Shown: piece by piece, positions 58,719 to 61,360 of the stretch
Numbering within the stretch: the stretch's first letter is position 1
How the letters are laid out: every line of letters begins with the position of its first letter
Assembly (NCBI GenBank): GCA_964016885.1
Contig: OZ024761.1
Coordinates: 24,118,001-24,182,000 of the forward strand
DNA from: Eledone cirrhosa
Taxonomy: Eukaryota
Length of the DNA stretch: 64,000 bases
Direction of reading: 5' to 3'
Made by a program: the position numbers and the translations under genes
Notes under the pieces: model-generated
What the model saw: only the letters and a program-made list of their open reading frames with translations
The model's database searches: none
What the model was told of the DNA's origin: nothing

Positions 58719-58765
58719 TATATATATATATGTGAGAAAAACCACAGACCCTCCATCTCAACTCA

Positions 58766-58803
58766 CCTTTTGAAAAGCAGAAGAACTGCGAAACCGGTAA
58801 AGG
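58766..58803 (+). ncRNA. Minimal type I hammerhead with compensatory U3-A8 core (family D)
   Basis: CCTT-TTGAAAA-GCAG AAGAA CTGC-GAAA-CCGG-TA-AAGG; all three helices intact, palindromic ACCGGT, GUA site. Confidence 0.7.
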
Positions 58804-58933
58804 AACCAAATAAATATATATATTTTTAAAAAAAATAAGACTTCAGTTGCATTTTCGATTTCATCTCTTTTTTTTATACTTTCACTCGTGTAGGACACCT
58901 CGGTTATTTTTCATTTTGTAAAAAAAACCTCAC

Positions 58934-58994
<61 letters not shown>

Positions 58995-60686: not shown

Positions 60687-61360
60687 TTATTTAGGTTTGA
60701 AGGTTCACCACTGGATAGAGCTGGTCATTCTGTATGGTCAATCTTGATGTAATAATATGGAGAGTACTCAACGTAAAGCAGCTCAACCGTCTTCGTTTGT
60801 GTAGTTGGTGGTGCGAGTACGGAGTTAAATATTATAATAAAATAACAAGAGGCTGGACTTGTGCAAATCATTGAAAGGATATATATATATATAAATATAT
60901 ACACACACACATATATATATATATATATAAGAATGTATGTATAGTATATTTGGCAATATATCGTATGTTTTAATTAAAAACATTTAGAAGACCATACGCT
61001 ATCGGTTTTAAAGTAGTGACTATGTCACTTACATCTTTTCGGCGAAAGAAGGGAGAGAAGCTAGCAGTCTGTTTCACGCTTTTTGGCAAACATCAGAGCC
61101 ACGCACCCCCTGATTCCACCGAAAACTATAGAAGCTGGATTCTTATAGAATTCCAGTAATAATCAGGAGCTGATTACACAGAGCGATTGCCGGTCCAGCA
61201 AAAGTTAGGTATTAGGATTGGTGCTCTGAAATACCGATGTATACATGAATGTATGTATAGTATATTTGGCAATATACCGTGACATAGTCACTACTTTAAA
61301 CCGATAGCGTAAGGTCTTCTAAATGTTTTAAATTAAACATACGGTATATACTCAAATAAA

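What the first reader, a model, noticed from the sequence alone, without database searches (positions are those of the whole stretch)
58766..58803. Natural C3-G8 to U3-A8 compensatory hammerhead cores recurring in three families
Seen: UUGAAAA (58770 and 43673) and UUGAUAA (1112, 3470) replace CUGANGA exactly between helix I and helix II. At 58766 all three helices are perfect. In the family at 3350-3600 / 60960-61205, one copy has TTGATAA and the other CTGATG at the homologous position. Known: C3-G8 is a tertiary Watson-Crick pair in the active HHR fold, and U3-A8 can substitute. Inference: the double change indicates selection on catalysis in the source elements, and standard CUGANGA searches would miss these copies.
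Basis: partly seen in the sequence, partly recalled or inferred. Interest (0 to 1): 0.75.

Follow-up and report, generated by a model that had tools for sequence, protein, structure and literature searches.

The report
Penelope hammerheads with U3-A8 core
These are small hammerhead-type RNA motifs, predicted to cut themselves, in three families of jumping repeats; a U-A pair replaces the usual C-G core pair in over 12,000 copies of one Penelope-type element, a swap already published for such elements, so this is a new example of a known thing.

Summary
Real but already known. 58766-58803 is a minimal type I hammerhead in the terminal repeat (pLTR) of a Penelope-like element: full-length copies carry RT plus GIY-YIG with this motif at both ends. 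U3-A8 is the family norm: 12,388 of 12,534 pattern matches, 146 single changes, no C3-G8, so 'independent decay' is refuted. Helix III is a palindrome for dimer formation, not a perfect monomer helix. The 1111 family is also fixed U3-A8 and probably shares ancestry. Only the 3352-3662/60947-61245 family, a 315-bp retrozyme-like repeat, shows both states (59 C-G, 34 U-A, 7 mismatched of 100 rows), explained by one switch on a tree. Four of the five cited copies are decayed or have a weak helix I. Natural U3-A8 covariation was reported by Perreault 2011 and, in Penelope elements, Cervera and de la Pena 2014. The scan noted the same variant before in at least 7 genomes, including this one. Cleavage is untested; one chimeric locus joined at both predicted cut sites hints at cutting in vivo.

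The parts
58766..58803 (+). Family A minimal type I hammerhead: helix I 58766-69/58800-03, core U3-U4-G5-A6-A7-A8-A9 at 58770-76, helix II 58777-80/58786-89, GAAA 58790-93, palindromic helix III 58793-98, predicted cut after A58799 (GUA)
   Evidence: identical core in full-length elements
58730..58940 (+). Solo, 5'-truncated pLTR piece of a 4.7-kb Penelope-like element (family A), flanked by (TA)n
   Evidence: 97-98% identical to pLTRs of intact elements L182, L185, L187; both ends fall at the family's common end points
43633..43779 (+). Second family A pLTR piece; U3-A8 core at 43673-79, helix I broken, loop II with a 3-nt insertion; likely inactive
1106..1152 (+). Family B hammerhead: U3-A8 core 1111-17, helix II GAUG/CAUC, palindrome ACCGGU, 2-bp helix I; likely the end of a related Penelope-like element
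   Evidence: endonuclease fragment upstream on the same strand in one family B locus, L100
3352..3662 (+). Family C unit, one full permuted turn of a ~315-bp non-coding retrozyme-like repeat; U3-A8 subfamily; hammerhead 3464-3509, decayed
60947..61245 (-). Family C unit of the C3-G8 subfamily; hammerhead 61059-61100 with A9 and U16.1 lost; partial inverted copy beside it at 61279-61358 (+)

Best explanation
The motif at 58766-58803 is a minimal type I hammerhead in the terminal repeat of an abundant Penelope-like retrotransposon whose copies nearly all carry U3-A8 instead of C3-G8, and it likely folds as a dimer through its palindromic helix III and is predicted to cut its own RNA slowly after GUA. 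The U3-A8 pair likely keeps the tertiary 3-8 Watson-Crick pair of the active fold, was fixed in the source element before it spread, and was then copied passively; single changes in genomic copies are decay after insertion. Family B likely shares the state by descent. Family C is a non-autonomous, likely circular-RNA-templated repeat in which one double change separates U3-A8 from C3-G8 subfamilies.
For: Shown: motif in both pLTRs of full-length elements with ORF1 (~410 aa) and a 775-aa ORF2 (L181, L182, L187) with RVT_1 (E 1.3e-6, 28.7 bits, just under the 29.6 cut-off) and GIY-YIG (27.3 bits, over the cut-off), and a CX4CXXC linker seen in the ORF2 sequence; inverted head-to-head pairs and (TA)n flanks. 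Family A: 12,388 U3-A8, 93 non-U3 all with A8 (47 C, 23 G, 23 A by my count of the rows), 53 non-A8 all with U3 (22 G, 17 C, 14 U), 0 C3-G8. Family B pattern: 2,792 matches covering two families; 33 with G8, none with C3. Family C: 93 of the first 100 of 1,059 rows Watson-Crick, 59 C-G and 34 U-A; with core columns masked, one change on the tree, mismatched copies on terminal branches; helices I, II and III also differ between subfamilies while staying paired. Computed: dimer -18.9 kcal/mol for the active pairing, -20.3 for the near-identical minimum, against -6.4 for a monomer that lacks helix III. Literature: same architecture and U3-A8 variant in Schistosoma Cercyon pLTRs, monomer inactive and dimers weakly active for the one min-HHR tested (PMC4209133); U3-A8 natural and active in vitro per Perreault citing Przybilski and Hammann (PMC3088659). 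One locus (L220) holds a family C fragment ending at its predicted cut site joined to family A starting at its predicted cut site, in both arms of a fold-back.
Against: No cleavage data for any of these sequences. Fisher P of 8e-19 for family C reflects subfamily structure, one event, and that branch has modest support (79/57; 80% of bootstrap trees). Absence of C3-G8 in family A is expected without selection (0.08 copies). Family A copies do not pile up at the cut site: 442 matches lacked the intact upstream sequence, and only about 4-6 of the first 30 loci begin or are rearranged there, about 1% of the family; 18 of 33 aligned rows (chosen to hold the motif) start 62-75 nt upstream of it, so the usual template seems uncut. 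In the anole Poseidon element, hammerhead cleavage was not needed for insertion in vitro (PMC11167929). Family C lacks the usual G10.1-C11.1 pair (A-U, U.U, A.A or C.A), which may weaken it.
Confidence: 0.85

Rival explanations
1. The fold is kept as a structural signal (for example for binding by the element's protein or for setting reverse-transcription start sites) and cleavage is negligible; the 3-8 pair is conserved for shape, not chemistry.
For: Most copies were made from RNA that spans the uncut site; only about 1% start at the cut site; hammerhead mutants did not affect insertion by the anole element in vitro and no RNA-seq reads ended at its site (PMC11167929); min-HHR activity is low (PMC4209133).
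Against: All catalytic-core positions, the NUH triplet and the palindrome are kept across unrelated families; the chimera at L220 joins two predicted cut sites; the anole element's hammerhead did cleave with protein present and needed the 3-8 pair.
Confidence: 0.3
2. U3 and A8 are two independent, AT-biased losses (C to T, G to A) in lineages whose ribozyme no longer mattered, and their complementarity is a coincidence.
For: Both changes are the commonest transitions in an AT-rich genome; the number of independent events here is about two.
Against: The rest of the core is intact in 12,388 copies and in intact full-length elements; no subfamily with a mismatched 3-8 consensus among family C rows; by-catch hammerheads in 601 kb of fetched loci gave 40 C-G and 49 U-A hits against 7 others (targeted families included); the same double change recurs in schistosomes and prokaryotic hammerheads.
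Confidence: 0.08
3. The source elements have CUGANGA and the window copies decayed after insertion.
For: Four of the five cited copies are decayed or weak elsewhere in the motif.
Against: 0 C3-G8 among 12,534 family A matches; 0 among 33 G8 matches of the family B pattern; U3-A8 subfamilies of family C are clades.
Confidence: 0.01

Closest known systems
Minimal type I hammerheads (min-HHR) of metazoan Penelope-like elements, U3-A8 variant of Schistosoma mansoni Cercyon (Cervera and de la Pena 2014, PMC4209133; parts 1-2 of 4 of the text read)
   Same: pLTR location at both ends of an RT-GIY-YIG element, 4-bp helix I, palindromic helix III, U3-A8 for C3-G8, mostly solo truncated copies, inverted pairs.
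   Different: About ten times more copies (12,388 against ~1,300 hits), low divergence, 4-bp helix II without the extra nucleotide after A9, two overlapping ORFs; a linker zinc-finger-like motif that points to Neptune/Nematis.
Natural U3-A8 core covariation (Perreault et al. 2011, PMC3088659; section 8 and passages read)
   Same: Same double change; also reports the U10.1-U11.1 mismatch seen in one family C subfamily.
   Different: Scattered examples there; here the fixed state of high-copy animal repeat families. A.A and C.A at 10.1-11.1 are not in the section read.
Non-LTR retrozymes of animals (Cervera and de la Pena 2020, PMC7229834, passages; Li et al. 2026 bioRxiv 10.64898/2026.07.22.740005, abstract)
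   Same: Family C: ~315-bp non-coding unit with a type I hammerhead, head-to-tail dimers with a seamless junction, low GC.
   Different: Mostly dispersed monomers and fold-backs; near-palindromic helix III; subfamilies differ at 3-8 and lack G10.1-C11.1. Circular RNA not tested.
Poseidon element PAc of Anolis carolinensis (Frangieh et al. 2024, PMC11167929; passages read)
   Same: pLTR hammerhead, two preferred 3' end points separated by a tail, AT-rich targets.
   Different: Canonical C3-G8 core, single ORF starting inside the ribozyme, Penelope/Poseidon clade.

Membership tests
Hammerhead ribozyme, type I minimal | Core N3-U4-G5-A6-N7-N8-A9, G12-A13-A14, A15.1-U16.1, H17 with a Watson-Crick 3-8 pair | tested here: met
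   58770-58799 read directly; U3-A8 in 12,388 of 12,534 matches
Hammerhead ribozyme, type I minimal | Helices I and II, G10.1-C11.1 | tested here: met
   Family A 4 bp and 4 bp with G-C. Family B has only a 2-bp helix I; family C lacks G10.1-C11.1
Hammerhead ribozyme, type I minimal | Palindromic helix III allowing a dimer | tested here: met
   ACCGGU; computed dimer pairs all 22 helix positions
Hammerhead ribozyme, type I minimal | Match to an Rfam hammerhead model | tested here: not met
   No hammerhead at gathering score in the window, canonical-core minimal motifs also missed; none among the 150 of 748 rows shown at E up to 5
Hammerhead ribozyme, type I minimal | Self-cleavage after H17 | not testable with these tools
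   No assay possible; one chimeric junction at two predicted cut sites is indirect
C-terminal EN+ Penelope-like element (family A) | RT followed by GIY-YIG with two cysteines inside the motif | tested here: met
   775-aa ORF2, RVT_1 and GIY-YIG hits; YAIKCKGCNEDYIG in the sequence
C-terminal EN+ Penelope-like element (family A) | pLTRs in partial tandem, inverted truncated copies, tail, microsatellite targets | tested here: met
   features as described in PMC8557442
Neptune or Nematis clade | [quoted passage not shown] | tested here: met
   CGRSNCGTC in ORF2; definition from PMC8557442 introduction
Neptune or Nematis clade | Placement in an RT tree with reference elements | not tested
   No reference PLE proteins were fetched
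Non-LTR retrozyme (family C) | 150-450-bp non-coding unit with type I hammerhead in head-to-tail repeats | tested here: met
   315- and 304-bp spacing, seamless junctions in L152 and L153
Non-LTR retrozyme (family C) | Expressed as circular RNA | not testable with these tools
   No RNA reads were available to lay

The most novel reading that the evidence does not exclude
U3-A8 hammerheads cut in the living animal, and cut RNAs of different elements are ligated to each other and retrotransposed (locus L220); family C records a single C3-G8/U3-A8 switch in a ribozyme that also tolerates A.A and C.A at 10.1-11.1, giving a natural series in which to test what cleavage does for Penelope-type mobility.
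Probability: 0.35. Interest if true: 0.45.

Novelty: new member of a known kind. Interest (0 to 1): 0.22.

Why it matters
Mostly as confirmation and for annotation: a variant core once called exceptional is the norm in a 12,000-copy young Penelope-like family, so hammerhead counts from CUGANGA descriptors understate the total. Family C offers matched natural C3-G8 and U3-A8 subfamilies for assays. The role of cleavage in Penelope elements is still open, and these counts do not settle it.

Tried and rejected
Rfam at gathering score found only a tRNA-like hit; the E-value run was swamped by microsatellite matches. The repeat finder was swamped likewise. A DNA search with the family A stretch returned nothing, as the tool skips very common words; patterns were used instead. 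Monomer folding z-scores for the short motifs were uninformative (-0.94, -0.54, 0.90, 0.08). The first family C tree (75 rows) needed 5 changes for U3-A8, which I attribute to truncated and fold-back flanks; 21 rows aligning over under 230 nt were dropped and the 54-row tree needs 1. A pile-up of copy starts at the cut site, a lead from earlier notes, was tested in family A and not found as a dominant feature. More chimeras like L220: 1 match genome-wide. Papers not held: Lunse 2017, Przybilski and Hammann 2007, Martick and Scott 2006; I rely on what other papers say of them. Literature searches: 0 papers; only PMC4209133. No supplements were read; those of PMC4209133 list min-HHR families and may include relatives of these.

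Full report
Setting. The window lies in a 3.0-Gb, AT-rich, microsatellite-rich animal genome (G000:C22:24118001-24182000). I did not identify the organism.

Observation. All cited heptamers are present, with 1112 corrected to 1111. At 58766-58803 the sequence reads helix I CCUU, core UUGAAAA, helix II GCAG/CUGC, GAAA, ACCGGU, A17, helix I AAGG. A descriptor free at positions 3 and 8 found 3 motifs in the window against 0.47 per shuffle. Helix III is a six-base palindrome: the monomer fold lacks it, while a dimer forms all helices at -18.9 kcal/mol, close to the -20.3 minimum. The other four cited copies are each decayed or weak in helix I, helix II, the palindrome or the core.

Family A (58766, 43673). 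A loose pattern has 12,696 genome matches and 0 for the reversed control. With a fixed spacer, 12,388 are U3-A8, 93 differ at position 3 and all keep A8, 53 differ at position 8 and all keep U3; none is C3-G8. Base tallies within those lists are my counts of the rows. So U3-A8 is the state of the source element. The lack of C3-G8 copies is what independent decay predicts (0.08 expected) and is no evidence of selection among copies. A protein search led to intact elements. Of 10 loci fetched, three (L181, L182, L187) show a 4.7-kb unit with ORF1 of about 410 aa, an overlapping 775-aa ORF2 and the U3-A8 motif at both ends in direct orientation; the window piece is 97-98% identical to the pLTRs of L182 and L187 and 91-93% to those of L181. 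ORF2 matches RVT_1 (just under the cut-off) and GIY-YIG and has a cysteine linker motif that PMC8557442 (introduction and passages read) gives for Neptune and Nematis; no tree with reference elements was made. In 33 aligned rows from 30 loci chosen for holding the motif, 18 start 62-75 nt upstream of the predicted cut and most end at +79 or about +150, like the two start sites and tail described for the anole element (PMC11167929, passages). The window copy is such a short piece.

Family B (1111). The pattern matched 2,792 places and covers two families. Of 33 matches with G8, 32 have U3, one A3, none C3. Helix I is only 2 bp as the norm. Endonuclease fragments 46-59% identical to family A lie upstream on the same strand in one family B locus and three loci of the sister family. 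With the shared ACCGGU palindrome this suggests, but does not show, one inherited U3-A8 state for A, B and the sister family.

Family C (3352-3662; 60947-61245). A non-coding unit of about 315 bp with head-to-tail dimers and a seamless junction, matching the description of non-LTR retrozymes (PMC7229834, passages; bioRxiv 10.64898/2026.07.22.740005, abstract). Of the first 100 of 1,059 matches, 59 are C3-G8, 34 U3-A8, 4 C3-A8 and 3 U3-G8 (counted by eye; the pattern allowed only C/U and G/A). With core columns masked, a tree of 54 of 75 copies (21 short or rearranged ones dropped; sample biased to the 3470 subfamily) separates the states by one branch of support 79/57, and the three mismatched copies kept sit singly within the C3-G8 group; the unfiltered tree needed 5 changes. 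The root is not known, so direction is open. Position 10.1-11.1 is A-U or U.U with C3-G8 and mostly A.A or C.A with U3-A8.

Does it cut? Not shown. I tested a lead from earlier notes that copies start at the cut site. 442 places have the sequence after the cut without the intact upstream bases; in the first 30 loci most are small indels or internal deletions and about 4-6 start or are rearranged at the site, roughly 1% of the family. One row led to L220, where a family C fragment ending at its predicted cut site is joined to family A beginning at its predicted cut site, in both arms of a fold-back, with one base of ambiguity. It is unique in the genome at one mismatch, was found after the fact, and could be a template switch; it is a hint only.

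What is known. Cervera and de la Pena 2014 (parts 1-2 of 4 read) report U3-A8 instead of C3-G8 in Schistosoma Cercyon pLTR hammerheads, about 1,300 hits with a dedicated descriptor, palindromic helix III, and low dimer-dependent activity for the min-HHR they tested. Perreault et al. 2011 (section 8) report natural U3-A8 covariation and cite in vitro activity. Frangieh et al. 2024 found that a PLE hammerhead needs the 3-8 pair to cleave but that cleavage was not needed for insertion in vitro. Eight earlier notes of this scan, in at least 7 genomes and one in this genome, describe the same variant; they are unchecked AI notes and count only as leads.

Verdict. It is a new, high-copy member of a published kind, with about two independent switches rather than three, and catalysis inferred rather than shown. 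Interest 0.22.

Noticed in passing
window 22281 (+), 54052 (+), 63403 (+), 21998 (-), 21692 (-): Five canonical C3-G8 type I hammerheads with long A-U-rich helix I and (AT)-palindromic helix III; 21692/22281 form an inverted pair. Rfam missed all.
   Followed up: no
window 3200-3330: Perfect fold-back of another C3-G8 hammerhead-like motif (core at 3271 on + and its mirror), next to the family C unit.
   Followed up: no
window 45433-45503 (-): tRNA-like Rfam hit, 40.9 bits; could be a tRNA-derived repeat head.
   Followed up: no
L220 (G000:C1:339265700-339266900): Fold-back insertion in which a family C hammerhead fragment is joined to family A exactly at both predicted cut sites; unique.
   Followed up: partly
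G000, e.g. L070, L071, L078: A fourth, young U3-A8 family (loop II GCTTTTGCAGACC) with the same ACCGGU palindrome, 2-bp helix I and an upstream endonuclease 59% identical to family A.
   Followed up: partly
L180 and L188: Tandem and inverted arrangements of family A elements with long open ORF2 frames; many 775-aa frames among 150 scored matches suggest recent activity.
   Followed up: partly
family C rows: Position 10.1-11.1 is A-U, U.U, A.A or C.A, never the usual G-C; helix III palindromes of 8, 9 and 13 nt in different subfamilies.
   Followed up: partly
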